Origin: a virus
Taxonomy: Duplodnaviria > Heunggongvirae > Uroviricota > Caudoviricetes
Direction: 5' to 3' (one strand)
Length of the DNA: 64,000 nt
Virus record (IMG/VR): IMGVR_UViG_3300042402_004854
Span: 1 to 64,000 of that record
Below are positions 834 to 34,517 of this stretch, piece after piece; within the stretch, counting starts at the first letter, position 1; every line of letters begins with the position of its first letter. Under the pieces are notes generated by a model that ran no database searches, had not been told where the DNA came from, and saw only the letters and a list, made by a program, of their open reading frames with translations. Position numbers and translations under genes: made by a program.

Positions 834-842
834 GGAGATCCT

Positions 843-1637: not shown

Positions 1638-1638
1638 C

Positions 1639-2601: not shown

Positions 2602-2638
2602 AATATTACACCAGCAAATCTCTGCCTTAAATATTTGC

Positions 2639-4547: not shown

Positions 4548-4563
4548 TCTGCTACAATGTTGC

Positions 4564-14903: not shown

Positions 14904-15004
14904 TTGTAGATGAATGGGTCTCGTTTGCGAAGTTCTTTTAGTTTTTTACGATAGCGTATTTCCAGGATAATTTGATCGTATATTTTTTTCAACCATTTAA
15001 ACAT
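14900..15004 (-). CDS. conserved 34-aa small ORF (MFKWLKKIYDQIILEIRYRKKLKELRKRDPFIYK), translationally coupled upstream of carbamoyltransferase
   Basis: ATG at 15004, preceded by AAGGA 7 nt upstream. The TGA overlaps the carbamoyltransferase ATG (ATGA). Paralogue of 15683..15784 with conservative substitutions. Confidence 0.55.
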   Translation of the reverse strand: MFKWLKKIYDQIILEIRYRKKLKELRKRDPFIYK

Positions 15005-15686
15005 AATTTTTCCTTAAGACGTAAGTTACCAACCCACCGTTTTTAAAATTGAACAGTGCTGGCAACCAAAAATTTTGTAACATACTAGGGTAGGCTTTTT
15101 TGAGTTCAAAATCAGGTAGCATCGATTTAATCTTATCAAAGGTAAAACTCAACTCGAACGGATGTAATTCTTGATCTTGATACAATGTATGGCTATTGTA
15201 GTTTATTTTAAATACTTTTTTTAGTATTTTTCCTGCAGGATGATAAAGCCCTAAAATTATAGTACCACCTGGACGTGTCAGTTCACGTAGCTTTGTTATC
15301 ACTGTCATGTAGTCAGGAATATGGTGTAAAACACCTTGGCATACAACCACATCAAACGTTTCTGCAAGATTGAGTTGAGTTAAATCTTGCCGGTTGAATT
15401 CTACGTTGTTAATGTTGTGTTGTTTTTTAAATTGTTTCGCATAGTCAACTGAGTTTGAAAAATCCACGCCCATAAATTTTGATTGTGGATGTCTCAGCGC
15501 CATTAAATTTGTTATCAATCCGGTACCACAGCCAGCATCCAATACTGATTGATTGTTGTCAATTTGTGATTCGATAATGCGCAGATATCGGTTTTCAATT
15601 GGATGTCCGTACGCCAACAATTGCTCTATACTGTAAGGTCCTGGGAACGGAACCTCATTGTAAAACTCTTTGACTGTTTGTTTCAT
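14997..15686 (-). CDS. class I SAM-dependent methyltransferase
   Basis: VLDAGCGTGLITNLMA (motif I, GxGxG). 229 aa. Confidence 0.8.
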   Translation of the reverse strand: MKQTVKEFYNEVPFPGPYSIEQLLAYGHPIENRYLRIIESQIDNNQSVLDAGCGTGLITNLMALRHPQSKFMGVDFSNSVDYAKQFKKQHNINNVEFNRQDLTQLNLAETFDVVVCQGVLHHIPDYMTVITKLRELTRPGGTIILGLYHPAGKILKKVFKINYNSHTLYQDQELHPFELSFTFDKIKSMLPDFELKKAYPSMLQNFWLPALFNFKNGGLVTYVLRKNYV

Positions 15687-15784
15687 TTATAAAGGTAGGG
15701 ATCTTGTTTTGCTAATTCTCTTAGATGTTTTCTATACCGTATTTCTAGGGCGATTCGATTCCAAAGTCTGCGTATCCATTTCAT
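15683..15784 (-). CDS. conserved 33-aa small ORF (MKWIRRLWNRIALEIRYRKHLRELAKQDPYLYK), translationally coupled upstream of methyltransferase
   Basis: The ATG at 15784 overlaps the stop of 15781..16806 (ATGA). AAGGAG 6 nt upstream. The TGA overlaps the methyltransferase ATG. Paralogue of 14900..15004. Confidence 0.55.
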   Translation of the reverse strand: MKWIRRLWNRIALEIRYRKHLRELAKQDPYLYK

Positions 15785-16806
15785 CGTAGTCTCCTTATTT
15801 GTTGATCGGCATAATCTTGATCGCTCCAACAATACTCATATGTAGCTTCGGCGTCACTGGTGCGTATTTTATACACATCTAAATGAGTGCTAAGTTGATT
15901 CCAAATTTGATTATAATCTAACGTGCCAAAACTTTTATTCAAATTAACCTGTGCCACTTGAGGGTGGCCAATTGTTAACAATTTATCTTCTGGATCAAAT
16001 TCATTATCAATTAACCATTGTCGAAAATTTGCAATTTGTTTTTTTTGCCAAAAAAACGCCCCAGGATCTCTAGCCCATTCAATATCAAAATCACCAGCAG
16101 CCTCAGTTTGATTACGTAAACCAGTTGTCACTAGTTCATCTACACTGCGCCCTTCGTCGTTAAACACTTCCCAGTGCGTTTTTCCCACAGCCTTATTTAT
16201 TCCCACGTAAACTCCGCCCATTTGACGATTTAATGTTTCAACCCCAAACAGTTTGTAATCCTCTGTGTCTAATAGAAATCTTGGCGACTTGAGCCAACAC
16301 ATGAGTTGACTGGGTCTACGCCATTCGGGCGCTTGTATGACCTTGCGCATGCTGAGCACAAGACTTTCGTATTCATGGCACAACAAGTTGAGTTGACGTA
16401 TATGCCAGCGTGTTCGATCGTCTGCCTTGGTCCAATAAGGACTCATATGTCCTGAATGTCCTTGCAGATCTTCAAAGTAGCGATGTAGCCAGTTCATGCG
16501 GTCATGGTCAACATCTAAATTGTCCTGTATGGTGCCTTCTACAGTGAAATGATCTTGTATTACATAACCCAGGTTGGCTGAGTTAATAGCGGCAATGCTG
16601 GCATTGATCTGATTGACGATGTATTCGGCATTGCGTTCACTTTCAGTCCAGCCCAACCAGCAGTAGTTTTTTTCTAAATGCAAGTCGTTGCGTATGATGT
16701 CATTCAATGCACTCAACCATTTGCGACTGAGACTGTTGTCTGTGACATCAATGTGCAGTGTGAGCGTGTCTGCACCACGCAGGTCTATTTCGATTCTATC
16801 AAGCAA
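15781..16806 (-). CDS. hypothetical protein (341 aa; TTG start as drawn)
   Basis: ORF track; long frame in the co-directional block. No motif recognised. The start codon is uncertain: TTG at 16806 overlaps the stop of the upstream rSAM gene. Confidence 0.55.
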   Translation of the reverse strand: MLDRIEIDLRGADTLTLHIDVTDNSLSRKWLSALNDIIRNDLHLEKNYCWLGWTESERNAEYIVNQINASIAAINSANLGYVIQDHFTVEGTIQDNLDVDHDRMNWLHRYFEDLQGHSGHMSPYWTKADDRTRWHIRQLNLLCHEYESLVLSMRKVIQAPEWRRPSQLMCWLKSPRFLLDTEDYKLFGVETLNRQMGGVYVGINKAVGKTHWEVFNDEGRSVDELVTTGLRNQTEAAGDFDIEWARDPGAFFWQKKQIANFRQWLIDNEFDPEDKLLTIGHPQVAQVNLNKSFGTLDYNQIWNQLSTHLDVYKIRTSDAEATYEYCWSDQDYADQQIRRLR

Positions 16807-18076
16807 TGTTGTTCCACCATTCTAGCACCGCGGGACGACCAGCCAGTATTTCAGCCATGGTGATCGGTTGTGTGCGTATACTTTCTAATTGTAACACACG
16901 TGCCTTGCCTTTTGCAATGCCTTTGGAGTACTGATCCGGCCATTGCTCAGCAAATGTGGGCCGTTGTTTTAGTTGTAATAACACATCACGTAGCGCACCG
17001 TCCACTTGTGGCACAAGTTCATCGATCCACGGATCTAGCAATGACCTGGGCATGGACAAGGGACTCATCACAATGTCTGGTGAGAACGAGAACATTACTT
17101 TAGCAAGGACTTCGACTCCGAATTCCTGGGCAAGTTGTCTAATGTGTGTAACTTCGAACATTCCGGGCAGAGTGAGCGTAAAGTCAATTCGTACTTGACG
17201 TCTGTTACGTTGGATCTCAACTGCTTGACCAAAATGCTCAAGCCACTGATCATACTCAAGGCCTGTTCTAATGTATTCACCAATTGCGCCCGTGCCGTCG
17301 AGACTTGCACATATCTGCCAATCGCGCAGCCCGCTGAGAATATCGCGATATAAGTTAACACCTCGATAATCCACTCTGGATAAATTTGTATTGTATCTAG
17401 CATATACCTTTGGCCCGTCCCCTAATTCAACTATGCGTCGCATATAACGCCAATGTTGTTCGTACATCAAGGGCTCGCCACCTACCCAGTATACTTCTTC
17501 AACACGATGCTGTTCTACTGCTTCGGCAAACTCAGCCTCGATCTGACTGTCCTGAAATGCTGAGATATCTCGACGCACTTCAGGACGCATCCAGGTGTTC
17601 TTGGGATTGGACCAGTCAACCATGTTGTGTTGTTTCTGTTCGGTTTCCCAACTACTACTCAGCATGTCACCACATGTACGACATTTGAAATTGCACAGGT
17701 TGGAGAATCTATAATCCCAACTCACCGGCTGCATTGTGGTGTAGCCTGCTGTATCAGTGGTTTCCCAGATGTCAGGATACTTATGTTTGAACAACTGCCA
17801 AAAATATGTGCGGTAAACATTAGTGTTCAGCAGTTTGTCATTGCACACTTCGCACTCAGGTAGAGTTTCTCCAGCCATCATTCTACTGCGCACACTCCGC
17901 ATGTGCGGCGAGTTCCAGTGTTGTTCCAGTGTGATGGGAATGTATCGACCAGTGCCTGCGGCTGTGTCTATGTACTGCTCAAAGTTCTGTGCAGGTTCAC
18001 GACTCGCACAACACATGCGCCGTTCTGTTTGTGGACTCAAATAGGTATGCACCCAAGGTGCCATGCATAGGCTCAT
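16799..18076 (-). CDS. radical SAM enzyme, Cys/Trp-rich N-terminal extension (family member 1)
   Basis: CNFKCRTCGDMLSSSW (CxxxCxxC then SSxW). N-terminal CMAPWVHTYL...CC...CEVC. Confidence 0.75.
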   Translation of the reverse strand: MSLCMAPWVHTYLSPQTERRMCCASREPAQNFEQYIDTAAGTGRYIPITLEQHWNSPHMRSVRSRMMAGETLPECEVCNDKLLNTNVYRTYFWQLFKHKYPDIWETTDTAGYTTMQPVSWDYRFSNLCNFKCRTCGDMLSSSWETEQKQHNMVDWSNPKNTWMRPEVRRDISAFQDSQIEAEFAEAVEQHRVEEVYWVGGEPLMYEQHWRYMRRIVELGDGPKVYARYNTNLSRVDYRGVNLYRDILSGLRDWQICASLDGTGAIGEYIRTGLEYDQWLEHFGQAVEIQRNRRQVRIDFTLTLPGMFEVTHIRQLAQEFGVEVLAKVMFSFSPDIVMSPLSMPRSLLDPWIDELVPQVDGALRDVLLQLKQRPTFAEQWPDQYSKGIAKGKARVLQLESIRTQPITMAEILAGRPAVLEWWNNIA

Positions 18077-19008
18077 GACTTTTCTGCATAATGTAAAATA
18101 GGCTCCACAATCTGTTTTAAAATTTGATTAATTACAAATTCACGATTGTAAAAATGATCTCGATTGTGTTGCAATCGACGCAAAGTTTCTGCGTCATGGT
18201 CTTTTATAATTATTTCAGATAATATTTTAATTACAGCATCGCGACGTTGGTCTACATCCACAATTTCGTCGTAGCTTTCATCCCACAAATTATCAAATGT
18301 TTCAAAACCCCATGATTTTAGTGTTCGTAATACACCACGATTTCCATATATTATTAATGGATGTTGGAATGCCAGAGGCTTCATGGTTTTTTCTGTAATG
18401 AATATAGGTGTGTATTTGCTCAGTGGACACACAACAGTCTCTACCACCATGCTGCAATACGTCTGATCATACCATTCAGGATCGAAGCGCCTCTGTGTAT
18501 TCCAATCAGTCATATCTCCATCATTAGGAAGTTGGCGGCCTGTACCAACATAACTCCACATCATGTTTTTTAGTAAATGCTGCACAGACTTTACAAACTC
18601 AGTTCTGTGCGGTCTTAATAGGTTCATGGGCATCAGCGCCTGATATACAGGCCTGTACTGTGGTTGGTATCGATCATATTCAAGGTGTTGATACCAGAGA
18701 CTTTCATTATACCAAAACCAAGAATCGCAATGCACTTGGTGCGTATTTGGTATAAGATCTAATATGGCTTCCCATAATGTGTCTATAATAACACGAAACC
18801 CACGATCTACTAACTCTTCCACGGTAACAGGCAACACATTGTTATAGTTAGGAAAGTCTAAACAATTTAAATAAAACCCAGTTCCCGGGTCATATGTACG
18901 TGATGGATCCCAGGGCTCAAATTCTAAATATTGATCAAAAATAGGACGTAACCAATCGCTACCAAATGAACTTATGGGTTTGGCATGTACTATTTTGAAT
19001 CGTTTCAT
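18073..19008 (-). CDS. GT10-family glycosyltransferase paralogue 3
   Basis: SMVVETV...FITEKTMKPLAFQHPLIIYGNRGVLRTLKSWGFETFDNLWDESYDEI. Confidence 0.6.
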   Translation of the reverse strand: MKRFKIVHAKPISSFGSDWLRPIFDQYLEFEPWDPSRTYDPGTGFYLNCLDFPNYNNVLPVTVEELVDRGFRVIIDTLWEAILDLIPNTHQVHCDSWFWYNESLWYQHLEYDRYQPQYRPVYQALMPMNLLRPHRTEFVKSVQHLLKNMMWSYVGTGRQLPNDGDMTDWNTQRRFDPEWYDQTYCSMVVETVVCPLSKYTPIFITEKTMKPLAFQHPLIIYGNRGVLRTLKSWGFETFDNLWDESYDEIVDVDQRRDAVIKILSEIIIKDHDAETLRRLQHNRDHFYNREFVINQILKQIVEPILHYAEKS

Positions 19009-19009
19009 G

Positions 19010-20233
19010 TTAGTTTTGGAAATAGTAATTAATCAGTGAGGCCATTTCTGGAGATACTGCTCTAAAATCTGTTGATCGCTTGCGATCTAAATCTGCAGTT
19101 TTCATGCGCAACATAAATCCATCTGTACTTGCACCACGATTCATAAAGTCAATGATGCGATCAAATTCCTCACGATACTGCGGTGGTATATCTGCTGAAC
19201 GCAAGTATTCTGTAATACCAGTTTTGGCAGTGTCTGGCAATGTGGCTATTGAAAAGTGCCAAGGATCATGCATCATATTCCAGTATACAAAATTAAAACT
19301 TTCTTTGTTTTGGTCAATCCATTGTGCCACTTGATCTAGATAACGTACATTGAACACGTTTACTGTGGTACAAATTTGGAGAACTATATTGCTGTGACAT
19401 TCTTTGAGGTCTCTAAAACGATCTAAATTTGTGCAGACTTCTTGCCAGTCTGCATTGGTGCGTTGATATTCAAATCTCTCACCAATATCATCAATGCTAA
19501 ATGCAATTTCAACAGTTTTAAAATGGCGCCAAATTGCTTCACCACGTTCAGGCCAGTGTGTGCCATTGGTATTGTAGTGTATTTCAACTTGGTGCGCAAT
19601 ACCGCAATCAACAATGCCTTGCAACATGTCAAAGTGTTCGTCAATCATGAATGGTTCACCGCCAGTGAATTCAATATAGCGTATATCTGTTAATACTGTG
19701 TTAATTTCATCCCAGAATTTTTTATTCTCTCTAGGCCATGCGCCGGCTCGAAGCATGAAGTAATGATAATTGTTCTTTTTATCTACGTCCCGGGGCAGTG
19801 CATTTAGTTCTTCTGTGGCGTATTGACTGCTCGACCATGACCCGCAGATACGGCATTTTAAATTACAGATGTTGCCTAGTTTCAAATCCAAAAACATTAG
19901 CGGTTTGGCGTCTGCTGTCCACTCCTGATCAGGTACTATGTGTTTGAGTCTGTTTAACGTGTGCATGCGTTTGCTGGTACGACCTGAACGTTCCTCACTC
20001 CAACAACGCCTACATGTTTGCGGTTTTTCGCCGGCCAAGAACTTTTCTCGTAACTGTCGCATGTGGTTGCTGTTTTGTACATCAATAAACGATGCTGTAG
20101 AGAGTTCAAACTTTTCGCCATTGTTATTTAATATTTCATCATCAGCAAGACAACACGGTCGCACAGTACCAATAGGACTGGCTTCAAGGCTGACCCAGGG
20201 CAGTACACAAAATTTATCATGTGGAATATTCAT
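19010..20233 (-). CDS. radical SAM enzyme, Cys/Trp-rich N-terminal extension (family member 2)
   Basis: CNLKCRICGSWSSSQY. N-terminal FCVLPWVSLEASPIGTVRPCC...CRRCW. Confidence 0.75.
   Translation of the reverse strand: MNIPHDKFCVLPWVSLEASPIGTVRPCCLADDEILNNNGEKFELSTASFIDVQNSNHMRQLREKFLAGEKPQTCRRCWSEERSGRTSKRMHTLNRLKHIVPDQEWTADAKPLMFLDLKLGNICNLKCRICGSWSSSQYATEELNALPRDVDKKNNYHYFMLRAGAWPRENKKFWDEINTVLTDIRYIEFTGGEPFMIDEHFDMLQGIVDCGIAHQVEIHYNTNGTHWPERGEAIWRHFKTVEIAFSIDDIGERFEYQRTNADWQEVCTNLDRFRDLKECHSNIVLQICTTVNVFNVRYLDQVAQWIDQNKESFNFVYWNMMHDPWHFSIATLPDTAKTGITEYLRSADIPPQYREEFDRIIDFMNRGASTDGFMLRMKTADLDRKRSTDFRAVSPEMASLINYYFQN
20202..20233 (-). repeat. 32-bp direct repeat copy 1 (covers start codon and first 9 codons of rSAM member 2)
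   Basis: agtacacaaaatttatcatgtggaatattcat is 31/32 identical to 20950-20981. Confidence 0.8.
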
Positions 20234-20925
20234 AGTTTTGTTATAAATTGTTTATTGGTTTCAGTTAAAAAATATTGCTGCTCTGACATCAACCACTTGC
20301 AAGCTTTGTCAAAATTTTCTTTAACCAAAAATGGAATTTTAATATTTTTCAATGTGCAAATTGCATGGCACCAGGCAAGCCAGGGGATATTATTAGTTAT
20401 ATCAATCCGGTCTAATGTCCAACAAGATTTTTTATAATTGTCAATGGATTCAAGTACAAATCTTGTGTTGGGGGTGTGTTTTACTTTGTACCGATCTAAG
20501 CATGCAAAAACTTGTTGGGCAAATATTGTTGGGTTGTCAAACATCAGATCAGCATCAATTATAATGTTGTCAAGATAATCTTGAAAAAACTGCCCGTTGG
20601 TTTCCATGCGCCAACGTGCATTGTTAGACAATGCATACAGTAATTCTGCATTTTTAAGATTTGCCATACTTCCCTCAGTGGTGTAGGATTTATAATAGGC
20701 ATTCAAATAAGTTACGAATTGTGATTTAAAACTTGCAAAAGATCCTACTACCATGCCTTGAGGATTGTTTTCATGACTAAAATAAATTTGATTACTTTTT
20801 GGGTATTTGTGAAAGTTTTTAGACGTGGGCACTATATCAAAATTATTTGTTTCCAATGAATACATTAGATTGGATAGCCAATTCCCTCCCTGACCAGTGG
20901 GATATGTAATACAAATTTTGGTCAT
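20230..20925 (-). CDS. hypothetical protein (231 aa), flanked by 32-bp direct repeats
   Basis: ORF track; N-terminal ITYPTGQGGNW. No family recognised. Confidence 0.55.
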   Translation of the reverse strand: MTKICITYPTGQGGNWLSNLMYSLETNNFDIVPTSKNFHKYPKSNQIYFSHENNPQGMVVGSFASFKSQFVTYLNAYYKSYTTEGSMANLKNAELLYALSNNARWRMETNGQFFQDYLDNIIIDADLMFDNPTIFAQQVFACLDRYKVKHTPNTRFVLESIDNYKKSCWTLDRIDITNNIPWLAWCHAICTLKNIKIPFLVKENFDKACKWLMSEQQYFLTETNKQFITKL

Positions 20926-20949
20926 TTAAGCACTGTCAATTCAGAAGAT

Positions 20950-20981
20950 AGTACGCAAAATTTATCATGTGGAATATTCAT
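20950..20981 (-). repeat. 32-bp direct repeat copy 2 (encodes orphan MNIPHDKFCV fragment then stops)
   Basis: agtacgcaaaatttatcatgtggaatattcat. Its ATG overlaps the TAA of the B12-rSAM gene (TAATG), exactly as copy 1 abuts the stop of 20230..20925. Confidence 0.8.
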
Positions 20982-22741
20982 TAACAATCCAGTAACATTG
21001 TTTTTAATTCAAGATATTTGTCATTATCAAATTGTATATCATCATTTATGTTTGCATGCATGTTTGTAATTTTTTCAATCAGCGTTGGGTTAGCCATGAG
21101 ATGTGCATGTATCAACGTTTGTATTTCCACGGGCATCAATACGGGCTCTGTTCCCAATAACCCATAATGATCAGGGTAAACCTTGATGGCTAATGGTGTG
21201 CCAAAAAAATTGTCTATGTCTGAACGATGTAATCGTAGACTGTCTATCAATTGATTGAGTTCAGGAGTGTTTCTACTCATGGGCAGTCTCAACGCTGTGG
21301 CCACTTCTTGTAAAATCAGTCTGCGACGACACCTTTCAAAAAATGTCAATTCTGGATTGGTTTCTAATAGCCAGAGTATGTCTGATCCTCGACCAAAATT
21401 CAACCCAATTTGTTCTTGCATGTTCCACAGCGGGGTCTGTGGATGATGAGTGTATGGAGTTCCCAGAGTAATTTTGTACACTGTACCTGATGCACAATAT
21501 TGTTGATATCGTACAAACATGTTCACGGTGTCTAAAAAATCCGCCCAGGTTTCTGTGGGATAACAACTAAAAAATAGCAACACACAAACAATACCACGAC
21601 GATCAAATTCTGCTAGTTCATGATCAATATCTGCTGTAGTAAATTGTTTTTTCATGTGATCACGAACTGCATCACTACCGCTTTCCACACCAATAGTTAA
21701 CCCTTCTCCGCCGCTGAGTTTGAGCAGGTCATAGTATTCATCGTTGAGCACGTTTGATCTAGATCTAGTGATGTATTGCCCTACCCATTTGATAGCACTG
21801 TCTGGGTTGGCAGTGTTGTGCTGAGCCAATGTTGAAATAAAATTTTGAAATGCTGTCAAGCTACCATTCACCAAGCTGTCGCTCATGTAAAATTTTTTAA
21901 CACCATGGCGATGATACAAATGAATCATTTCCCGTGCAATATGGTCACCTGATCTAAATTTAAATTTAGGCCACAGCACTGGTATATCACAAAACGTACA
22001 TTTACGAACACAACCTTTACTGCCAGTGATGGGAATTATAGGTTCGTTTACATAATTATATTCTGTTAATTCGTAGTCATCAAAATCTACAAATGGTATT
22101 GCTTCAATGTCAATTTTTTCAACACTACCAGTTATACTGGATTCGGTTGATCCCGACAACAAATCTACAATAGCTTGCTCTCCATCGCCTTGTATAATTG
22201 AATCTACTACTTGATAAAACAACAATGTCTCGCTGAAATTTTTGTGAGGGTATGACCCAAAAAAACTTTTCATTTTATTGACAAATCGCCTGTGATCAGG
22301 GCCTAATGCATAACTACTGGCTCCTCGACCACCTAATACAATACGAATATCAGGCAATAGTCGTTGCACTTCTAAACACAAAGCCAAAGTGGCTTTGTGA
22401 CTTTTATAACTAAACACACTGATCCCTAGCCAACGTGGATTTTTTTCAGCAATTAGTTTGATGCTGATATCCAGCCATTGACGTATTAACTCTAAATCAT
22501 TGTCAAAAAATGCCAGCACAGGATCTATGGTATCATTTACATGTGTGCTTACGTTTTCAAAATTGTATTGTACTTGAAAAAATCGGTCGTTAGTTTTACA
22601 AATCTTTTTCAGTTCTAAATTTAAGTCAAGAGTGTTTGCAGTAAATCCTGCTGCAATTGCACAGCTTTTAATTACAGCAGGACTACTGGGTGGATATTGT
22701 AAGTCCAGCACAGGAACTGAGACTACTAATAAATCTAGCAT
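20981..22741 (-). CDS. large radical SAM enzyme, probable B12-binding (class B) type, paralogue A
   Basis: 586 aa. CVRKCTFCDIPVLW (CxxxCxxC) about 230 aa from the N-terminus. The N-terminal ~200 aa is consistent with a cobalamin-binding domain preceding the rSAM core. Paralogous to 27803..29620. Confidence 0.6.
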   Translation of the reverse strand: MLDLLVVSVPVLDLQYPPSSPAVIKSCAIAAGFTANTLDLNLELKKICKTNDRFFQVQYNFENVSTHVNDTIDPVLAFFDNDLELIRQWLDISIKLIAEKNPRWLGISVFSYKSHKATLALCLEVQRLLPDIRIVLGGRGASSYALGPDHRRFVNKMKSFFGSYPHKNFSETLLFYQVVDSIIQGDGEQAIVDLLSGSTESSITGSVEKIDIEAIPFVDFDDYELTEYNYVNEPIIPITGSKGCVRKCTFCDIPVLWPKFKFRSGDHIAREMIHLYHRHGVKKFYMSDSLVNGSLTAFQNFISTLAQHNTANPDSAIKWVGQYITRSRSNVLNDEYYDLLKLSGGEGLTIGVESGSDAVRDHMKKQFTTADIDHELAEFDRRGIVCVLLFFSCYPTETWADFLDTVNMFVRYQQYCASGTVYKITLGTPYTHHPQTPLWNMQEQIGLNFGRGSDILWLLETNPELTFFERCRRRLILQEVATALRLPMSRNTPELNQLIDSLRLHRSDIDNFFGTPLAIKVYPDHYGLLGTEPVLMPVEIQTLIHAHLMANPTLIEKITNMHANINDDIQFDNDKYLELKTMLLDC

Positions 22742-23997
22742 AGTGCCTTTAATTCCGGAATAGTTTCCATTATGTTTTCTCTCCTGATGTTATCCAACTC
22801 ATGTGTTTTACGCCAGAATGTATCTATCAAGTGTGTGTTGTCTGTGGCCATCATAAACTTGACGGCGCTTTCAAATCCTGTTGTGGCACGTTGCAAAGGA
22901 TCTTGATCACGCAACCACATGATGTGATTCAGATACCTTGTGCCCAGTTCTTGTTTGTATTCAGCTGGTGCAATATCTATTCTGTAGTATGCAGGATCTT
23001 GCAATATATTTACGTTCAAATCTTGTGGTCGGATTAGGCCTTTTTCTACCCATTCACGATGGAACTCAGGCAAATGGTGTGCATTTAATATGCTCAACGT
23101 AGGGCTGATATAAAAGTCTACTTCTGGACATATCTCTAACATGTCTCTGCGATTTTGTTCTACCACTGCCCAATCTGTACCTTTGCGAATGTACTCTCCT
23201 CGTGTGCCCGAGTCGTCCAAACTTGCTCCCACTGCCACACTATCAAACTGTTTCCAGTATTCAAATACGCTTTTACCTCGGAGTTCAGTGTGTGTAAAGT
23301 TTGTGTTGTAGATCAATCGTACATCAAAACGTTTTCTTCGAACTAACTCCTCCAAGATGTTGTAGTGTTCTTCCATCAGCAAGGGTTCACCGCCAGCAAA
23401 GTAAATTTGCTCTACATAGTCCAAATGTGGTTCCAATTGTTCCCACATGTCTAGTTCAGTGCGCCCTGCGTAATTTAATACTGTGTTGCGATCTTTCCAG
23501 TTACCGCCGGCTAGTTTCGCCTGATCTTGGTACCATTGACTGCTGAATATATGCCCACAACTGCGGCATTTTAGATTGCACAAGTTACTGAAACGAATAT
23601 CCCAGTACGTCATTTCAAACGGATTTGTGTTAAGTTTTTTAATATGATGCCCGTGATGTTTGTTTGCACTCTTTCGTCCACTGAAGAATCCATTTGCTTC
23701 TTGCTCATAGCAACGACCGCAGGCAGCATTGGGTGTTTCCGTCAACATGTCCTGGCGCAGTTGTTGCATGGGCACATCAGTCCAGATTTCTGCCAAGGTA
23801 TTTTTACGGCAGTTGCCCACTTGTCCCACACTCATCTCAGCATGGCAGCATGGGTATGCTTCTCCTGTGGGATAGGCGTGCAAATGTATCCAAGGATACA
23901 TGCAAAATGTTTTTGATTCAGTCAGCAAGAATTGTTCACGTTGTGTGAGTTCAGTAGGGCGTACTAAATCGGTGCTGTTATACTTGTATTGAGTCAT
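22735..23997 (-). CDS. radical SAM enzyme, Cys/Trp-rich N-terminal extension (family member 3)
   Basis: CNLKCRSCGHIFSSQW. N-terminal FCMYPWIHLHAYPTGEAYPCC...CGRCY. Confidence 0.75.
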   Translation of the reverse strand: MTQYKYNSTDLVRPTELTQREQFLLTESKTFCMYPWIHLHAYPTGEAYPCCHAEMSVGQVGNCRKNTLAEIWTDVPMQQLRQDMLTETPNAACGRCYEQEANGFFSGRKSANKHHGHHIKKLNTNPFEMTYWDIRFSNLCNLKCRSCGHIFSSQWYQDQAKLAGGNWKDRNTVLNYAGRTELDMWEQLEPHLDYVEQIYFAGGEPLLMEEHYNILEELVRRKRFDVRLIYNTNFTHTELRGKSVFEYWKQFDSVAVGASLDDSGTRGEYIRKGTDWAVVEQNRRDMLEICPEVDFYISPTLSILNAHHLPEFHREWVEKGLIRPQDLNVNILQDPAYYRIDIAPAEYKQELGTRYLNHIMWLRDQDPLQRATTGFESAVKFMMATDNTHLIDTFWRKTHELDNIRRENIMETIPELKALC

Positions 23998-25321
23998 ACC
24001 ATTCTGCTAGATTAGGAAATGACACAGCAAAGTTTTTGTCTCTGCGTTGGTCGTACTGTGTGTAGAACTGTTTAAAGTCATTCAATAGTTTGGGCAATTC
24101 AAATGCTTCCGAGTGTGGAGTTTTTACCACGTCAAGATAATCAATCAGCCGTTGTACATGGTTTACTTCGTGTTCGTGCAAACAGGGATTTTCTCTATTG
24201 TGAAACAACCATGCTTCTAACTGCAAGCGATAACGATTGCGTAGGTGATCAGGCAATACTAGAGCACTTTGAAAACTGGGGAAACGTAAAATGTTCAAGG
24301 TAAAGTTGACTTGGTCCCGCCCGTAACGTTGCTTCAATGTCAACATCATGTTGAGATGATCCACAAGACTATCCAAACACACTGCATTGATAGTACACAT
24401 CACATGCACAGCACTGACAAATCGACCTTCCAACAAAAACAACACATTGTTGAGCCATTGATCATAATCCAAACCATCTCTAATATACTCTGCTTGTTTC
24501 CACGTGGCTTCCATTGAAGTATATAGATCCACCCGGGGCAATGTGGCAATTGCTGCGGCAAAGTCTTTGATCTTTTCCAACTCAATACCAAGATTTGAAT
24601 TGATGGCCAACTGGGTGTTACTGCGTCCTTGATTGGCTTTGAACCACTCAATCAGTTTCCAAGTATAGCCTGACATTAGTGGCTCGCCGCCGGTTATTCG
24701 GAGTTCTTGCAAGGTTCTGTGGAGGTCTCGTTCCCACCAGTCAAAGAAGGCGTCCACGTAAGGATTAGTCTCACCGAATTTATAAAGTTGACTACTATCA
24801 TGAGTGTGAGTAAAATGGTTCCTACCATCGCTAACCAGCCCGTTGTAGGGTCCATGCTTGCGTATATCATTGACCCAAGTGGAACTAAAAGCAGGATTGC
24901 AATAAGAACAAGCAAATTGACAAGTGCGATCGAAACTGATTTCCAGTGTTCTAAGATTGACATCATCTTGGATGGGAGTTTTAACTGCTTCATGTAGTGC
25001 CTTTATAGGATAAATTTTACTTTTGTACACACGGTCACTCACAGCGTCAGTGTGCATGTCTTCAATCTTCCAGCAGTATTCACAGCCTGCTGGACGTTCG
25101 CCGGCTAGCATTTGCTGCCGGTCCGCTTTCTTTTGATCAGTATTGTGCAACAGCCTAGAGTTGAGCCGGACTTTATCAATGTCTACCAAATGGGCTGGCG
25201 GGTGATGGCAACTTGTGGTCTGCCCACTTCCTAACCAAATGGTAGCATTGTACCATTTCGCTGCACAAAAACTCGGGGATACAGGATCTAACACCTGTTG
25301 TTTAAATTCTAAATCATTCAT
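23978..25321 (-). CDS. radical SAM enzyme, Cys-rich N-terminal extension (family member 4); start trimmed to Met41 of track ORF 23978..25441
   Basis: CQFACSYCNPAFSSTW. N-terminal FCAAKWYNATIWLGSGQTTSCHHPP...CEYCW. The ATG at 25321 abuts the stop of the GT10 gene at 25314; the longer track ORF would overlap it by 128 nt. Confidence 0.7.
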   Translation of the reverse strand: MNDLEFKQQVLDPVSPSFCAAKWYNATIWLGSGQTTSCHHPPAHLVDIDKVRLNSRLLHNTDQKKADRQQMLAGERPAGCEYCWKIEDMHTDAVSDRVYKSKIYPIKALHEAVKTPIQDDVNLRTLEISFDRTCQFACSYCNPAFSSTWVNDIRKHGPYNGLVSDGRNHFTHTHDSSQLYKFGETNPYVDAFFDWWERDLHRTLQELRITGGEPLMSGYTWKLIEWFKANQGRSNTQLAINSNLGIELEKIKDFAAAIATLPRVDLYTSMEATWKQAEYIRDGLDYDQWLNNVLFLLEGRFVSAVHVMCTINAVCLDSLVDHLNMMLTLKQRYGRDQVNFTLNILRFPSFQSALVLPDHLRNRYRLQLEAWLFHNRENPCLHEHEVNHVQRLIDYLDVVKTPHSEAFELPKLLNDFKQFYTQYDQRRDKNFAVSFPNLAEWYDSIQV

Positions 25322-26426
25322 TGATGTATTGGGCCAAACGTTGGGGGAGTTCTGCACGTTCGCGACGATTGTGTTCACGAAGTTGTTGATAGTTGTATTT
25401 ACAAACTGATCGGGCTGCCTCCAAGAATTCAGCAGCACCATTATAACATATATCTGCTACTGTGTCTACTATTCTATTGGCGCGGTCTGTGGGATCATCG
25501 ATCTGATCAAAACTTTCATCAATCAGTTTCCCAAATGTTTGGAATCCTGCTGAATGTAAATCTCTGTAGTATCCCGGGTTGGCTGCTGCCACAAACGGAT
25601 GCCCCATGATCATAGGCTTCCAAATTTTCTCTGTGCGGAATGTGTGTGGATAATCAAATATGGTTTCTGTTACCACTGAGAAGTATGTGTCAATATAGGG
25701 TGCAGGATTGATTTCAGCATCACCCCAGGTGTTGTTGAACAGTCGATGTTTTACAAATCCTGTGGGCACTGTGTCCATATTGGGCAGTGCGCGGTCAATT
25801 TCGTATTGACGAGGTAACAATCGCACAGGCTCAGCATTGCCAGTTTGCAAACGACTGCTCCAGGCCATTTCCACACGATCATTGAGATTGGTCCACAGCG
25901 CTCGATCCAACAACTGTCGATCACGCATGGCATCAATCAAGTACTTGCGATGTGGACGCAGCCGTCCATTTAGGAACAGGAAGTCATAAGGTTTGTTTTG
26001 TTTGTGATACACCTGTGGGTAAGACTCGTGCGCACGTAAGTTTTCCAAATACTCCACAATGTTGGAGAAGTAGCAGTCTGTTTTACAGTACTTCCAGCCT
26101 GGTTCCAAGTCACCTGATGTCAGCAACAAGATGTCACCCCGACGAACTTGTTCTTTAATGCGCAGGCGTGTGAGTTGCAACAATATGGTTTCACTGCCTT
26201 CTGCAGGATTTGAAAACACAATACGTCCAGGATATTGTTGTGCCCACTCTGTTATTTCTATCCAATTGTCTTTTAATATCACACGCCCAACAATGTAAAT
26301 ATTGTCTGGGTCAAGCACAACGTCTGACCATTGCCAAAAACTGCCATCCGCATGTGTCTTGAGTAAGTCCCATACTTCGGCCCACTCATCCACAATGATT
26401 TTACGATTGCCTAGCATGGTATGCAC
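25314..26426 (-). CDS. GT10-family glycosyltransferase paralogue 4
   Basis: FRTEKIWKPMIMGHPFVAAANPGYYRDLHSAGFQTFGKLIDESFDQ. Confidence 0.6.
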   Translation of the reverse strand: MHTMLGNRKIIVDEWAEVWDLLKTHADGSFWQWSDVVLDPDNIYIVGRVILKDNWIEITEWAQQYPGRIVFSNPAEGSETILLQLTRLRIKEQVRRGDILLLTSGDLEPGWKYCKTDCYFSNIVEYLENLRAHESYPQVYHKQNKPYDFLFLNGRLRPHRKYLIDAMRDRQLLDRALWTNLNDRVEMAWSSRLQTGNAEPVRLLPRQYEIDRALPNMDTVPTGFVKHRLFNNTWGDAEINPAPYIDTYFSVVTETIFDYPHTFRTEKIWKPMIMGHPFVAAANPGYYRDLHSAGFQTFGKLIDESFDQIDDPTDRANRIVDTVADICYNGAAEFLEAARSVCKYNYQQLREHNRRERAELPQRLAQYINE

Positions 26427-27801
26427 ACTCCTCCCACCACGACCGCATCTCTGGGAATGTCTTCAAAAAGTCTGTGCCACGACGTCGATCATGTTCACTG
26501 AAGAAACGATAGAAGTCTGCCTTTGTACGTGAGTGATCTGTCAACTGTGCAGATCGCATCCAGGCAATGTCACGGTCCAGTCTGTGCAGTTCATAATCTT
26601 TGAATCCTTTGAACGGTTCCGCTTCTGTTTCGATCTGTCGCACCATCCATGCCCACAGCCATTCCAGTTTCTCTGCATAACTTTCGGGCAAGATCTGTAG
26701 GCTTTGCCACGCAGGCTCACGCAACACCGGTGTGTCAAACCACACACGTTGATAGGTGTTGCTGTATACTTTTCTCAAGCCCAATATACCAGCAAACAGT
26801 TTATCTAAACTAGTTACACTGAGATTGTTCATAGTGACAATAAATGTAAGACTTGAGTAGTTGGGCACTTCGGTAAGGAATTGATTTACTCGGTCCCACA
26901 GCAAGTCAAAGTCTAACCCATACCGCATGTATTCTGCTTGCTCGCCCCAACCATCAAGACTCACATACTGCATGAAGTGTTCGATGCGTCCGTCACAGAT
27001 TTGTTTTACATAGCCCAAGTACTTCTGCCATGACTTCTCATCTACTGAAAAGTTGCTTGTGACATTCAAGTGCAACTTGGGACTGGGATTCTCCAACACA
27101 TAATCAAACACACGATACGTGTTCCGATCCAGCAGTGGCTCGCCACCGGTCATGCGGAAATGTTCTAGGTGAGGGTACAGGCTTGGCCACCAAGACCAGA
27201 AGGCCTCAACATAAGGGTTTGATTCTCGAACGGGAATAGCACGGCGACTGCCAGTGAAATGCTCAGGAGCATTATGAGGCACCAGGGTAGGATATGCTCC
27301 GTGTCTAGCGACTTCATCTGCCCATGCACTACTAAACTGAGGGCTGCAATAACTACACCGCAGATTGCAAACGTGATTAAAATTAACTTCAACATAACTG
27401 GGAATGACATTTTCCGCTCCTGTGCTATTTTTTATCTGTTCAAAATCCACTGCGGCCCAAGGTTCACCTGAACGGTAGTGCCGATCACTTAGTTTGCCTT
27501 CATCTTCCATGTTCCAGCAGTACTGGCATTCTGCAGGTTTCTCCCCGGCCAACATCATTCGGCGTTGTTGTTTTTTATACTCAGTGTTGTGCAATGCCGA
27601 AACATCTATGGCAATCTCTTCAGGGTTGATCGAGTGCAAGGGCGGATGATAGCATGAATTGTTCATGCCTGTGGTAAGATGTAGGCTAACCTGCCTCCAC
27701 TTGGCCAGGCACAGTGCAGTCCCTAGTTGCTGTTTCATCTGCTCAGCAGAGTTTAAAAACTTGCTTTTGCCGTCTACAGATTCGTTGCCCTTTTGTTGCA
27801 T
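26401..27801 (-). CDS. radical SAM enzyme, Cys-rich N-terminal extension (family member 5)
   Basis: CNLRCSYCSPQFSSAW. N-terminal LCLAKWRQVSLHLTTGMNNSCYHPP...CQYCW. Closest paralogue of member 4. Confidence 0.75.
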   Translation of the reverse strand: MQQKGNESVDGKSKFLNSAEQMKQQLGTALCLAKWRQVSLHLTTGMNNSCYHPPLHSINPEEIAIDVSALHNTEYKKQQRRMMLAGEKPAECQYCWNMEDEGKLSDRHYRSGEPWAAVDFEQIKNSTGAENVIPSYVEVNFNHVCNLRCSYCSPQFSSAWADEVARHGAYPTLVPHNAPEHFTGSRRAIPVRESNPYVEAFWSWWPSLYPHLEHFRMTGGEPLLDRNTYRVFDYVLENPSPKLHLNVTSNFSVDEKSWQKYLGYVKQICDGRIEHFMQYVSLDGWGEQAEYMRYGLDFDLLWDRVNQFLTEVPNYSSLTFIVTMNNLSVTSLDKLFAGILGLRKVYSNTYQRVWFDTPVLREPAWQSLQILPESYAEKLEWLWAWMVRQIETEAEPFKGFKDYELHRLDRDIAWMRSAQLTDHSRTKADFYRFFSEHDRRRGTDFLKTFPEMRSWWEECAYHARQS

Positions 27802-27802
27802 A

Positions 27803-29620
27803 TTATATTTTGTTGTTAATAAGTTTAATTTTATTTTTCAATAACCCTTTTCGTCGATTCATATAAAAATCAAATTCTTCAGTTAATGAAGCTACAGGAA
27901 TTACTATGTATTTGTGTTGCGCATCTTGCCAAGTATCAATATCAAAATCTAAATCTAACATTACAGGGTACTGATGATCTTTATCTACTATCGAGTGTTG
28001 CTGCAATGCTTTTATGCCCGGGTCAATATCTGTTAGTTCTTCTAACACCTGTTGCGACAACTTGTATACATGTTTTCGATTTTCATAAACAAATAGTCCA
28101 CCTACAGATTGTAACCCATGACCGCCGCGGCTGTGATTTTCAAAATCCAACATCTTTCCGGTAGTTAGGTAATGTTGCACAACGTTTTTAATTTGTGCGA
28201 GGTACAACTGGAACGGTTCAGAGTTGTTTATTTTGTTAAACAGATTATCATAAAACGTCTTATAAGAAATATTTTTTTTGTATCTAGCGTACTTGGATAG
28301 GTACTGTGTGTATCCAACAATATGAAAATGCAAAATCATCCAAGCGTACATAAATCCTTCTACAATATCGTTTGTAGACATGGTATTTGTGGCGCATATT
28401 AATTCAATGCTTTCGTCAGTAATACCTTTATAATCATTAGCATTAGAAAAGCCCGAGTAATCACTGGCGTTGATTGTTAATATCCCGTATTTTTTTCTGC
28501 TGTGTTCTTGTGCTAGCTCACTGTTTTCTAGTATCTGGGCAAACCATATATCAATTGATTTATGTTGTCCAAGTTCTAGTAATTCAGTAAGTCCTCTTTT
28601 CCATGTTTCTAGTGTTTCTAGCGGTAGCCCTAAAATTACTTCTGTATAGGTACCAACATCGGTTTTGTCACTTATCTCCATTAGTTTGGCAATATTGTTT
28701 ACGTCAAGATTATCTCTCTTGATAGCTGTTAGGGTGTCGGGATTCATGCTCTGAACACTTACGGTAATGCCTCTACTGTACGGGCCTATAATTTTTGCAA
28801 TTTCAAAAACTTCGTCAGTAGAGTTTTTAGCGTACTGTATATTAATTGCATCTACCCTGCTACGGTCTGCAACAGATCTAATCATTCGAGCTATTTCTAA
28901 ATCACGTTGTTTAAAAATGCCAAAATTTGCATCAGCTAAAAAAAGAAAGCTAACTGGATTATTAACTGCCCATTCTAGATCTGCTTGAACATGCTCTAGA
29001 CTGAACTTTTTAATTTTACTATATGTTACCCCGCCCCAATCACAAAATGTACAAGCATACGGGCATCCACGGTTGGTTTCAAAAGTCATGCTCCATAATA
29101 CGTCAGGATTGTCAGCAACAATAGTATTAAATACTCCACTGGTATAAGGGCTAGGTATATCTAACTTCTGTAGACGTTGTTTTTGACTCAACATCTGAAC
29201 AGGTTGATTTGCTAAAATTGCTCGCAGAGTTTCGACAAATTTTTCTTCGCCTTCGCCGCATACAATACTATCTACAAACTTGTACTTTATATGACGACCG
29301 CTTACGTGCGGTCCGCCAAATTGGATTATACATTGTGGCCAGCGTTTTTTAATCATTTCTGCAAGAATCAAGCAATATTGAGCATTCCAAACATAAACAC
29401 TGAATCCACAGTATACTGGGTCCTCGATACGATCTAATATGTCCGCTGGATCTTCTCGTCGAAATATTAGATCTGCCAGTACAAAATTATTTGTTATATC
29501 ATCAAACTGACTAGCATAACTCCATAAGCACCCTGAACTGTACGGTAGCCAGTAGTTTGGTTCTTTCCTAAAATCCACAGAGTACTGCGGCTGGAACAAA
29601 TAGATATTTTTTTTATGCAT
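27803..29620 (-). CDS. large radical SAM enzyme, probable B12-binding (class B) type, paralogue B
   Basis: 605 aa; NRGCPYACTFCDWGGV (CxxxCxxC); same architecture as 20981..22741. Confidence 0.6.
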   Translation of the reverse strand: MHKKNIYLFQPQYSVDFRKEPNYWLPYSSGCLWSYASQFDDITNNFVLADLIFRREDPADILDRIEDPVYCGFSVYVWNAQYCLILAEMIKKRWPQCIIQFGGPHVSGRHIKYKFVDSIVCGEGEEKFVETLRAILANQPVQMLSQKQRLQKLDIPSPYTSGVFNTIVADNPDVLWSMTFETNRGCPYACTFCDWGGVTYSKIKKFSLEHVQADLEWAVNNPVSFLFLADANFGIFKQRDLEIARMIRSVADRSRVDAINIQYAKNSTDEVFEIAKIIGPYSRGITVSVQSMNPDTLTAIKRDNLDVNNIAKLMEISDKTDVGTYTEVILGLPLETLETWKRGLTELLELGQHKSIDIWFAQILENSELAQEHSRKKYGILTINASDYSGFSNANDYKGITDESIELICATNTMSTNDIVEGFMYAWMILHFHIVGYTQYLSKYARYKKNISYKTFYDNLFNKINNSEPFQLYLAQIKNVVQHYLTTGKMLDFENHSRGGHGLQSVGGLFVYENRKHVYKLSQQVLEELTDIDPGIKALQQHSIVDKDHQYPVMLDLDFDIDTWQDAQHKYIVIPVASLTEEFDFYMNRRKGLLKNKIKLINNKI

Positions 29621-29621
29621 G

Positions 29622-34237: not shown

Positions 34238-34517
34238 CGATTACAGCGACATTGTCAGGGTGACAAGGGGATCCAGAGTTGCCAGGGACCAGTTTAGCGG
34301 TGGTTGACCAAGTGACTTCTACTAACTTGCCGTTGCGCACACGCACGTTGGAAGCACTACGAGCAAAAGTCTCTTGATCAATCTCAATGTATGTACCAGG
34401 AACATCCTCCATGCTGTAGAATAGTGGTGTACCATTTGCATCATAGTACAGCCTAAAGAATGGCTCAGGTGGTTCTGGTATCGCATGCAGTATGGACCAA
34501 AACTCTTCGGGTATCAT
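34182..34517 (-). CDS. hypothetical protein (111 aa; start trimmed to Met30 of track ORF)
   Basis: The ATG at 34517 overlaps the cupin gene TGA (ATGA). The longer track ORF would overlap the cupin gene by 90 nt. Confidence 0.4.
   Translation of the reverse strand: MIPEEFWSILHAIPEPPEPFFRLYYDANGTPLFYSMEDVPGTYIEIDQETFARSASNVRVRNGKLVEVTWSTTAKLVPGNSGSPCHPDNVAVIVAEDQPHTCWSKQTYESN

What the first reader, a model, noticed from the sequence alone, without database searches (positions are those of the whole stretch)
16799..27801. Six-member radical SAM paralogue family with the Cys-rich auxiliary-like motif placed N-terminal to the rSAM core
ORFs 16799..18076, 19010..20233, 22735..23997, 23978..25321 and 26401..27801 share two features. 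The first is CN(F/L)(K/R)C(R/S)xC...SSxW. The second is an N-terminal ~70-aa region of the form C-x2-(P/K)W-x8-12-G-x3-5-(P/S)C(C/H)-x25-35-CxxC(W/Y). The CxxPW...G...PCC pattern resembles the start of SPASM/twitch auxiliary-cluster domains, which normally sit C-terminal. The sixth rSAM, 33110..34237, carries CPW...PCC C-terminally, the canonical place. This suggests a permuted or novel architecture repeatedly duplicated next to GT10 genes as rSAM-GT cassettes.
Basis: partly seen in the sequence, partly recalled or inferred. Interest (0 to 1): 0.85.

Follow-up and report, generated by a model that had tools for sequence, protein, structure and literature searches.

The report
Phage radical SAM enzymes, N-terminal twitch domain
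An uncultivated jumbo phage carries five divergent radical SAM enzymes whose extra iron-sulfur-binding "twitch" domain sits in front of the catalytic barrel instead of behind it; this layout is real but already catalogued as NCBIfam NF033640, and no member has a known function.

Summary
Five minus-strand ORFs (16799-18076, 19010-20233, 22735-23997, 23978-25321, 26401-27801) share a CX3CX2C radical SAM motif. They also share an N-terminal four-Cys motif, C-x17/18-C-x41-51-CxxC.

The reading of that motif as a displaced SPASM/twitch domain is also right:
- Pfam SPASM hits the N-termini.
- A profile of the N-domain finds the C-terminal twitch domain of BtrN, with all four Cys aligned.
- A confident AlphaFold model (pLDDT 92.9) places the Cys around a beta-hairpin and helices, as in twitch domains.

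The layout is not new. All five score 270-388 bits, full length, on NCBIfam NF033640 "N_Twi_rSAM" (cut-off 170). That family has more than 5,600 50%-identity clusters in bacteria and aquatic phages.

The five are not recent duplicates. They are 22-30% identical to each other, and each is 51-69% identical to its own subfamily.

The sixth rSAM is an ordinary C-terminal twitch/SPASM enzyme, and two more are B12-binding rSAMs. The "GT10" neighbours are three orphan paralogues with no detectable glycosyltransferase homology.

The genes lie in a roughly 32-kb sugar-tailoring island beside the baseplate genes. The most likely role is radical tailoring of a sugar or glycan, which is inferred and not shown. 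Interest is moderate.

The parts
16799..18076 (-). N_Twi_rSAM paralogue 1 (425 aa). Twitch Cys at 4, 22/23, 75, 78; CX3CX2C at 128-135.
   Evidence: NF033640 at 270 bits, residues 2-403. Cys positions. Best subfamily representative P0267, 56% identical.
18073..19008 (-). Orphan paralogue A (311 aa). Function unknown.
   Evidence: 34% identical to 25314-26426. No Pfam, PHROG, PDB or phage-database hit.
19010..20233 (-). N_Twi_rSAM paralogue 2 (407 aa). Twitch Cys at 9, 27/28, 74, 77; CX3CX2C at 123-130.
   Evidence: NF033640 at 345 bits. Pfam SPASM at 26 bits on residues 9-78. P0269 is 55% identical.
20230..20925 (-). ORF of unknown function (231 aa) in a variable slot of the island.
   Evidence: No family hit. 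Absent from L001 and L002.
20981..22741 (-). B12-binding (class B-type) radical SAM enzyme, 586 aa, PhpK-like. A putative methyltransferase.
   Evidence: Pfam Radical_SAM at 48 bits plus a weak B12-binding hit. TIGR04479 at 88 bits, below its cut-off. CVRKCTFC at residue 244.
22735..23997 (-). N_Twi_rSAM paralogue 3 (420 aa), the one closest to the family consensus. Twitch Cys at 32, 50/51, 93, 96; CX3CX2C at 140-147.
23978..25321 (-). N_Twi_rSAM paralogue 4 (447 aa). Twitch Cys at 19, 38, 80, 83; CQFACSYC at 134-141.
   Evidence: NF033640 at 288 bits. Start codon checked. 30% identical to paralogue 5.
25314..26426 (-). Orphan paralogue B (370 aa). Function unknown.
   Evidence: Shares TEK..KP..P..GF.TF..E motifs with A and C. 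AF2 pLDDT 33. No hit anywhere.
26401..27801 (-). N_Twi_rSAM paralogue 5 (466 aa). Twitch Cys at 31, 50, 92, 95; CNLRCSYC at 145-152.
   Evidence: NF033640 at 321 bits. P0253 is 61% identical.
27803..29620 (-). B12-binding radical SAM enzyme, 605 aa, KedN5-like. A putative C-methyltransferase.
   Evidence: NF033712 at 176 bits, below the 700-bit cut-off. Pfam Radical_SAM at 37 bits and B12-binding at 26.8 bits, the latter below its 32.1-bit gathering score.
29622..30587 (-). Orphan paralogue C (321 aa).
   Evidence: 22% identical to B, with the same C-terminal motifs. No family hit.
33110..34237 (-). Conventional radical SAM enzyme with a C-terminal twitch/SPASM-like domain (375 aa). Not a member of NF033640.
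   Evidence: NF033640 at only 39.8 bits, on the core. Pfam SPASM at 19.4 bits on residues 266-350. The family HMM matches it in permuted order.
4884..37579 (.). Surrounding sugar-tailoring island. It holds NDP-sugar epimerase/dehydratases (4884-5852 and 30563-31486), a DegT aminotransferase (6849-7952), a carbamoyltransferase (13416-14903), a SAM methyltransferase (14997-15686), a cupin, a PfkB kinase and a nucleotidyltransferase (34514-35983).
   Evidence: Pfam hits. Pfam calls on the L001 orthologues.

Best explanation
The five ORFs are members of five old, distinct subfamilies of the curated family NF033640 (N_Twi_rSAM). Each protein has three parts:
1. An N-terminal twitch domain of about 75 residues. 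Its four invariant Cys (one before a beta-hairpin, one just after it, and a CxxC after a helix) should bind one fully ligated auxiliary [4Fe-4S] cluster.
2. A partial TIM-barrel radical SAM core with CX3CX2C and GGEP motifs.
3. A C-terminal helical domain.

Proposed mechanism, by analogy with BtrN and anSME. The core cluster cleaves SAM to give a 5'-deoxyadenosyl radical, which abstracts an H atom from the substrate. The substrate radical is then resolved. Because the auxiliary cluster has no open iron site and there is no conserved H-donor Cys, the cluster most plausibly acts as an electron sink or relay. That points to dehydrogenation, elimination or decarboxylation chemistry.

In this jumbo myophage the five enzymes sit with two B12-rSAMs, one conventional rSAM-twitch enzyme, NDP-sugar enzymes, a carbamoyltransferase and methyltransferases in a single-strand island. 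They most likely each perform a different radical tailoring step on an unusual sugar or glycan made during infection. The glycan may decorate virion proteins or the host surface.

Shown: family membership, domain order, Cys conservation, fold, genomic context.
Inferred: cluster binding, chemistry, sugar substrate.
For: Membership and architecture:
- NF033640 at 270-388 bits, full length.
- Pfam SPASM hits on the N-termini.
- The N-domain profile hits BtrN residues 167-238 at E 1.3e-3. The four family Cys align with the only four Cys of that segment.
- The BtrN auxiliary cluster is ligated by four Cys and is proposed to be an electron acceptor (PMC9012708).
- The canonical twitch is a hairpin plus helix, with Cys before and after the hairpin and after the helix (PMC6231123).
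- The AF2 model has pLDDT 92.9, strands 38-41 and 46-48 flanked by C32 and C50/51, and C93/C96 after helix 75-85.
- No invariant Cys exists beyond the seven.

Old subfamilies:
- 22-30% identity between paralogues against 51-69% to their own subfamilies.
- All five orthologues are kept in the related phage contigs L001 and L002.
- Fused two-module proteins follow the gene order seen here.

Sugar context:
- Pfam hits.
- Bacterial multi-copy loci carry the same toolkit: extra rSAM 9/91, B12-binding 2, methyltransferases 4, DegT 2, epimerase 1.
- GT2, GDSL, DegT and a 404-aa ABC ATPase appear in some single-copy loci.
Against: - No member of the family has a known substrate. No solved structure is closer than a core-only match, and no paper in the library discusses the family.
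- 45 of 78 bacterial loci hold a single copy among unrelated housekeeping genes, with no conserved partner. The sugar link therefore rests mainly on this phage island and a minority of bacterial loci.
- No recognisable glycosyltransferase lies next to the rSAM genes.
Confidence: 0.6

Rival explanations
1. The enzymes modify a protein or peptide rather than a sugar. Possible reactions are cross-links, epimerisation or formylglycine-type oxidation. Possible targets are virion proteins such as the neighbouring 4843-aa protein, or a small precursor peptide.
For: - The island abuts structural genes, namely the baseplate genes and a giant ORF.
- No glycosyltransferase homology was found for the interleaved ORFs.
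Against: - No RRE or peptide-binding domain was seen in the Pfam/NCBIfam scans or in the secondary structure of the model.
- No small Cys-rich precursor ORF was noticed, although this was not searched systematically.
- The surrounding genes are sugar-nucleotide enzymes.
- The closest twitch match is the aminocyclitol dehydrogenase BtrN.
Confidence: 0.2
2. The enzymes act on nucleotides or DNA (viperin- or MoaA-like chemistry, or DNA hypermodification), and the sugar genes build a DNA-linked sugar.
For: - Weak core hits to viperin, MoaA and QueE models.
- thyX lies nearby at 3867-4547.
- Jumbo phages often modify their DNA (general knowledge).
Against: - The hits are core-only and far below the cut-offs.
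- Four Cys fully ligate the auxiliary site, unlike the open site in MoaA that binds GTP.
- No DNA glycosyltransferase, hydroxymethylase or kinase signature was found among the roughly 45 ORFs scanned against Pfam; several ORFs of 100 aa or more were not scanned.
Confidence: 0.1
3. The N-terminal Cys form a structural zinc site unrelated to Fe-S auxiliary domains.
For: Four Cys including a CxxC pair could in principle bind Zn. Metal identity cannot be read from sequence.
Against: - The region matches Pfam SPASM end to end, model positions 1-67 of 67.
- It aligns with the BtrN twitch domain with all four Cys matched.
- The spacing C-x17-C-x41-51-CxxC and the hairpin-helix layout are those of a twitch domain, not a zinc ribbon.
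Confidence: 0.05

Closest known systems
NCBIfam NF033640, N_Twi_rSAM (twitch domain-containing radical SAM protein)
   Same: All five ORFs match the model full length, well above the curated cut-off. They share its N-terminal twitch, radical SAM core and C-terminal helical region.
   Different: Nothing architectural. What is new is the setting: five different subfamilies side by side in a jumbo phage. The family has no assigned function.
BtrN (butirosin 2-deoxy-scyllo-inosamine dehydrogenase, PDB 4M7T), the archetypal twitch enzyme
   Same: Four-Cys twitch motif with near-identical spacing: BtrN C169-x17-C187-x44-C232-x2-C235, against C-x17/18-C-x41-51-C-x2-C here. Both have a fully ligated single auxiliary cluster and a SPASM/twitch-class core.
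Canonical C-terminal SPASM/twitch radical SAM enzymes (anSME, BlsE, SkfB, MoaA, SuiB)
   Different: The domain order is swapped. SPASM enzymes carry seven or eight Cys and two clusters, whereas these proteins carry four or five Cys and presumably one cluster. No RRE is present.
Phage genomes rich in radical SAM genes, for example the T4-like marine EVG TARA_ERS488813_N000010 with 12 rSAM genes (PMC5332604)
   Same: A large myophage that carries many rSAM genes; the window has 8 in 17.4 kb. Structural relatives exist in uncultured aquatic phages, KVP40 and phi-pp2. Sequence homologues are in Vibrio phages K566/K567 and Ralstonia phage RsoM2USA.
   Different: That report did not resolve subfamilies or architecture. 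I did not check whether its genes belong to NF033640.
Aminoglycoside- and deoxysugar-type radical tailoring sets (KedN5/GenK-type B12-rSAM C-methylases, AprD4, DesII)
   Same: Class B B12-rSAMs occur together with twitch-type rSAMs, NDP-sugar dehydratase/epimerases, DegT aminotransferases and methyltransferases.
   Different: All matches to those equivalog models fall far below their cut-offs. The host is a phage, not an actinomycete gene cluster. The product is unknown.

Membership tests
NCBIfam NF033640 N_Twi_rSAM | Whole-protein HMM score at or above the curated cut-off of 170 bits, with full-length coverage | tested here: met
   Scores of 270, 345, 388, 288 and 321 bits, covering about model positions 1-398, for the five ORFs. 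ORF6 scores 39.8 bits on the core only and is not a member.
NCBIfam NF033640 N_Twi_rSAM | Twitch-type Cys motif N-terminal to the CX3CX2C radical SAM motif | tested here: met
   Cys positions. Invariance. Pfam SPASM hits on the N-termini.
Radical SAM superfamily | CX3CX2C cluster motif, GGE SAM-binding motif and a partial (beta/alpha)6 barrel | tested here: met
Twitch domain (as defined in PMC6231123 and PMC9012708) | Beta-hairpin followed by a helix, with Cys ligands before the hairpin, after the hairpin and after the helix; three or four Cys for one cluster | tested here: met
   AF2 secondary structure places C32 | strands 38-41 and 46-48 | C50/51 | helices | C93, C96. The profile aligns to BtrN 167-238 with four of four Cys matched. 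Definition.
Twitch domain (as defined in PMC6231123 and PMC9012708) | Located as a C-terminal extension of the radical SAM barrel | tested here: not met
   The domain lies about 43-50 residues upstream of CX3CX2C in all five. The family HMM matches the conventional ORF6 in swapped order. The proteins therefore have a homologous domain in a permuted order.
Twitch domain (as defined in PMC6231123 and PMC9012708) | Actually binds an auxiliary Fe-S cluster | not testable with these tools
   Needs metal analysis or spectroscopy.
SPASM domain | Seven-Cys motif CX9-15GX4C-gap-CX2CX5CX3C-gap-C that binds two auxiliary clusters | tested here: not met
   Only four or five Cys lie upstream of the core, and there is no CX2CX5CX3C motif. 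Motif definition.
GT10 fucosyltransferases (claimed for ORFs 18073-19008, 25314-26426, 29622-30587) | Match to the Pfam Glyco_transf_10 model, or a GT-B fold | tested here: not met
   No Pfam hit to any GT family, even at E<=10. A profile search of the PDB gave nothing at E<=10. The AF2 model was unusable at pLDDT 33, so the fold remains untested. A 'TEK' motif resembles GT10, but that is from my memory only and is a lead, not a test.
Class B (B12-binding) radical SAM methyltransferases (ORFs 20981-22741 and 27803-29620) | N-terminal B12-binding Rossmann domain plus a radical SAM core | tested here: inconclusive
   The Radical_SAM domain is clear. The B12-binding hits are below the gathering score (19.1 and 26.8 bits against 32.1). 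The subfamily models (PhpK, KedN5) are far below their cut-offs.

The most novel reading that the evidence does not exclude
The island could be a phage-encoded, largely radical assembly line. It would combine eight radical SAM enzymes, five of them N-terminal-twitch enzymes of different subfamilies, with three orphan partner proteins. The product would be a heavily tailored sugar or glycan of a kind not yet described, used to decorate the virion (for example the adjacent 4843-aa protein) or to remodel the host surface. The N_Twi_rSAM family as a whole would then be a large, unrecognised class of carbohydrate-tailoring radical enzymes.
Probability: 0.3. Interest if true: 0.7.

Novelty: new member of a known kind. 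Interest (0 to 1): 0.42.

Why it matters
NF033640 is a large family: at least 5,649 clusters at 50% identity score E<=1e-30 against the five-paralogue profile. No member has a known substrate, a solved structure or any discussion in the searchable literature.

This phage island, and its conserved relatives on contigs of about 350 kb, puts five subfamilies next to sugar-nucleotide enzymes. That gives a concrete context for choosing substrates to test. It also offers a natural example of a swapped domain order for the twitch auxiliary-cluster module. Finally, it adds to the evidence that large aquatic phages invest heavily in oxygen-sensitive Fe-S radical chemistry.

It does not reveal a new protein architecture.

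Tried and rejected
- Megablast of the region against 50,697 phage records found nothing. tblastn found only Vibrio phages K566/K567 and Ralstonia phage RsoM2USA.
- The search for related loci with the five-paralogue alignment failed because it had no conserved stretch. It worked with a 34-sequence alignment.
- An alignment that included the fused double proteins misaligned the ORF1 orthologues and was discarded.
With the three window paralogues alone it gave pLDDT 33, which is unusable.
- Profile comparison of the orphan family with the interleaved hypothetical proteins of Vibrio phage K566 showed no relationship.
- For the orphans, Pfam at E<=10, PHROGs, a PDB profile search and tblastn against the phage database were all negative.
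- BLASTP of the ORF3 N-domain against the ORF6 C-terminus gave nothing, and a single-sequence PDB search with the N-domain gave nothing. Only the profiles worked.
- A census of bacterial neighbourhoods found no conserved partner gene.
- Literature searches for the family name, for 'N-terminal twitch/SPASM', for jumbo-phage rSAM plus glycosyltransferase, and for twitch plus nucleotide sugar returned nothing relevant.
- The afdb50 fold library was unavailable.
- Recent tandem duplication was considered and rejected on identity grounds.
- A zinc-ribbon reading was considered and rejected.


Full report
**What is there**

All genes between 13.4 and 36.8 kb lie on the minus strand with short overlaps, like an operon. 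The window comes from an uncultivated jumbo myophage:
- The baseplate wedge protein (55901-59335) is about 33% identical to those of Sinorhizobium phage Phosso, Agrobacterium phage Atu_ph07 and the coliphage 121Q group.
- There is no nucleotide-level match in 50,697 phage records.
- Orthologues of the rSAM genes at 85-92% identity occur on metagenome contigs of up to about 356-362 kb.

**Observation**

Each carries a CX3CX2C motif followed by SS. Upstream of that lies a C-x17/18-(C)C-x41-51-CxxC motif. These seven Cys are invariant among the five. They are also invariant in a 34-sequence alignment with diverse relatives, except that three rows start after the first Cys.

The details need small corrections:
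- The long spacer is 41-51 residues, not 25-35.
- ORF4 reads CQFACSYC.
- ORF2 reads SSSQY.

An HMM scan of all six reading frames finds exactly five such genes in the window. ORF6 (33110-34237) has its CX3CX2C at residue 39 and its CPW...PCC...CxxxC motif at residues 266-350.

**Is the N-terminal region a displaced twitch/SPASM domain?**

Yes. Five lines of evidence agree.
- Pfam SPASM (PF13186) matches the N-termini end to end. ORF3 residues 32-97 score 41 bits and ORF2 scores 26 bits, against a gathering score of 21.5. ORF1 scores 17 bits, below threshold.
- Several NCBIfam models of C-terminal SPASM enzymes align their C-terminal regions to ORF3 residues 37-108.
- A profile built only from the N-domains of 30 family members finds BtrN as its sole significant match in the PDB (E 1.3e-3). 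It aligns to BtrN residues 167-238, the C-terminal twitch domain. The four invariant family Cys fall on the only four Cys of that segment. The BtrN auxiliary [4Fe-4S] cluster is ligated by four Cys (PMC9012708; PMC6231123).
- The full-length family HMM matches the conventional ORF6 in swapped order. Model positions 126-273 align to residues 39-170, and model positions 15-51 align to residues 267-306.
- An AlphaFold2 model of ORF3 is confident (pLDDT 92.9, pTM 0.89). It shows C32 before a hairpin (strands 38-41 and 46-48), C50/51 just after it, and C93/C96 after the following helices. That is the canonical ligand layout described for twitch domains.

**Is it new?**

No. All five proteins are full-length members of the curated NCBIfam NF033640, 'N_Twi_rSAM, twitch domain-containing radical SAM protein'. 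They score 270-388 bits against a cut-off of 170. The RadicalSAM.org paper had already noted that some members of the SPASM/twitch megacluster carry their extra conserved Cys N-terminal to the barrel, and that no structures were available (PMC9477430).

The family is large and widespread:
- The five-paralogue profile finds 5,649 clusters at 50% identity with E<=1e-30, including many two- and three-module fusions.
- Members occur in Bdellovibrionota, Bacteroidota, Elusimicrobia, Alphaproteobacteria, Paenibacillus and others.
- Predicted structures with full-length similarity are common in uncultured aquatic phages, with weaker relatives in Vibrio phages KVP40 and phi-pp2.
- Vibrio phage K566 has three members in a row.
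- Phages with many rSAM genes have been reported before: a T4-like marine genome carries 12 (PMC5332604).

What is missing is function. No solved structure is closer than a core-only match. No paper in the searchable library names the family or an 'N-terminal twitch'.

**Duplication?**

The five are not recent local duplicates. They share 22-30% identity with each other. Each is 51-69% identical to a different 50%-cluster representative. All five orthologues are conserved in the related phage contigs L001 and L002. The slots between them vary. L001 carries a sixth, divergent family member where the window has a B12-rSAM and a 231-aa ORF.

Fused proteins in related phages join ORF2-like with ORF1-like modules, and ORF5-like with ORF4-like modules, in the same order as the genes here. 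This suggests the enzymes work together.

Multi-copy arrays are also a bacterial habit of this family. 30 of 78 loci hold 2-9 copies within ±8 kb.

**The 'GT10' neighbours**

ORFs 18073-19008, 25314-26426 and 29622-30587 are true paralogues, 22-34% identical, with shared TEK..KP..P..GF.TF..E motifs. Each sits directly upstream of an rSAM gene. None of the following found anything:
- Pfam, even at E<=10
- PHROGs
- a profile search of the PDB
- tblastn against the phage database

Their AlphaFold model was unusable. Homologues were found only in the related phage contigs, not next to bacterial family members. The glycosyltransferase label is therefore unsupported. The cassette pattern (orphan gene followed by an rSAM gene) is real.

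**Context and likely function**

The rSAM genes sit in an island of about 32 kb. Its recognisable members are:
- two NDP-sugar epimerase/dehydratases
- a DegT aminotransferase
- a NodU/CmcH-type carbamoyltransferase
- a SAM methyltransferase
- a cupin
- a PfkB kinase plus a nucleotidyltransferase
- two B12-binding rSAMs with weak similarity to KedN5- and PhpK-type methylases

The island ends next to a 4843-aa ORF and the baseplate genes.

Bacterial multi-copy loci carry a similar toolkit: extra rSAMs, B12-binding rSAMs, methyltransferases, DegT and an epimerase. Some single-copy loci hold GT2, GDSL, DegT or a 404-aa ABC ATPase. Most single-copy loci, however, show no informative neighbour.

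Three features bear on the chemistry:
- the fully Cys-ligated auxiliary site
- the absence of a conserved extra Cys that could act as H-donor
- the specific resemblance of the twitch domain to that of the aminocyclitol dehydrogenase BtrN

On this basis I favour radical H-abstraction followed by oxidation, elimination or decarboxylation on a sugar or sugar-nucleotide, with one step per paralogue. This is inference. Peptide or protein modification (about 0.2) and nucleotide or DNA chemistry (about 0.1) are not excluded.

**Verdict**

The structural interpretation is correct. The claims of novelty, of repeated duplication and of GT10 identity are not supported.

These are new members of a known but uncharacterised family, in an unusually rSAM-dense phage sugar island: 8 rSAM genes in 17.4 kb. 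Interest is moderate. The value lies in pointing experimentalists to a tractable context for a large orphan family, not in a new architecture.

Noticed in passing
window 41370-55901 (-): A giant ORF of 4843 aa lies between the sugar island and the baseplate genes. Its only Pfam hit is a weak CBM_5_12 match near residue 3960. It could be a fibre or decoration protein and a possible glycan target.
   Followed up: partly
L002 (NZ_JBBAKG010000003.1, 'MAG: Haliscomenobacter sp.'), 1-17257: A 148-kb contig binned as a Haliscomenobacter MAG is syntenic with the window. ORF3 is 80% identical, and all five N_Twi orthologues, the orphan paralogues and the carbamoyltransferase are present. It is probably a phage contig placed in a bacterial bin, and it may hint at the host.
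   Followed up: partly
proteins P0121-P0131 and P0241-P0262 (metagenomic): Natural fusions of two or three N_Twi_rSAM modules, 790-1466 aa long. P0245 joins an ORF2-like module to an ORF1-like module. P0241 joins an ORF5-like module to an ORF4-like module. Both follow the gene order in the window.
   Followed up: partly
L001 11215-12660 (+), compared with window 20230-22741: The related 356-kb phage contig has a sixth, divergent family member (82 bits, with its first twitch half missing or diverged). The window has a B12-rSAM and a 231-aa ORF at that position, so the island is modular.
   Followed up: no
L081 (Vibrio phage K566) 9010-14499: A cultured 255-kb Vibrio phage has three family-type rSAM genes in a row, with interleaved hypothetical proteins of 311 and 361 aa. 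These are not detectably related to the window's orphan paralogues.
   Followed up: partly
window 38841-40568 (-): A 575-aa protein with a sub-threshold Chlorovirus glycoprotein repeat hit and PHROG 'virion structural protein' matches, directly downstream of the sugar island.
   Followed up: no
window 843-1637 and 3867-4547 (+): An SPFH/Band 7 protein and a ThyX flavin-dependent thymidylate synthase lie upstream of the island.
   Followed up: no
L066, L068, L079, L020 (Bdellovibrionota MAGs): Bacterial arrays of 5-9 N_Twi_rSAM genes within 17 kb, on both strands, interleaved with ORFs of about 300-350 aa. The family tends to form paralogue arrays outside phages as well.
   Followed up: partly
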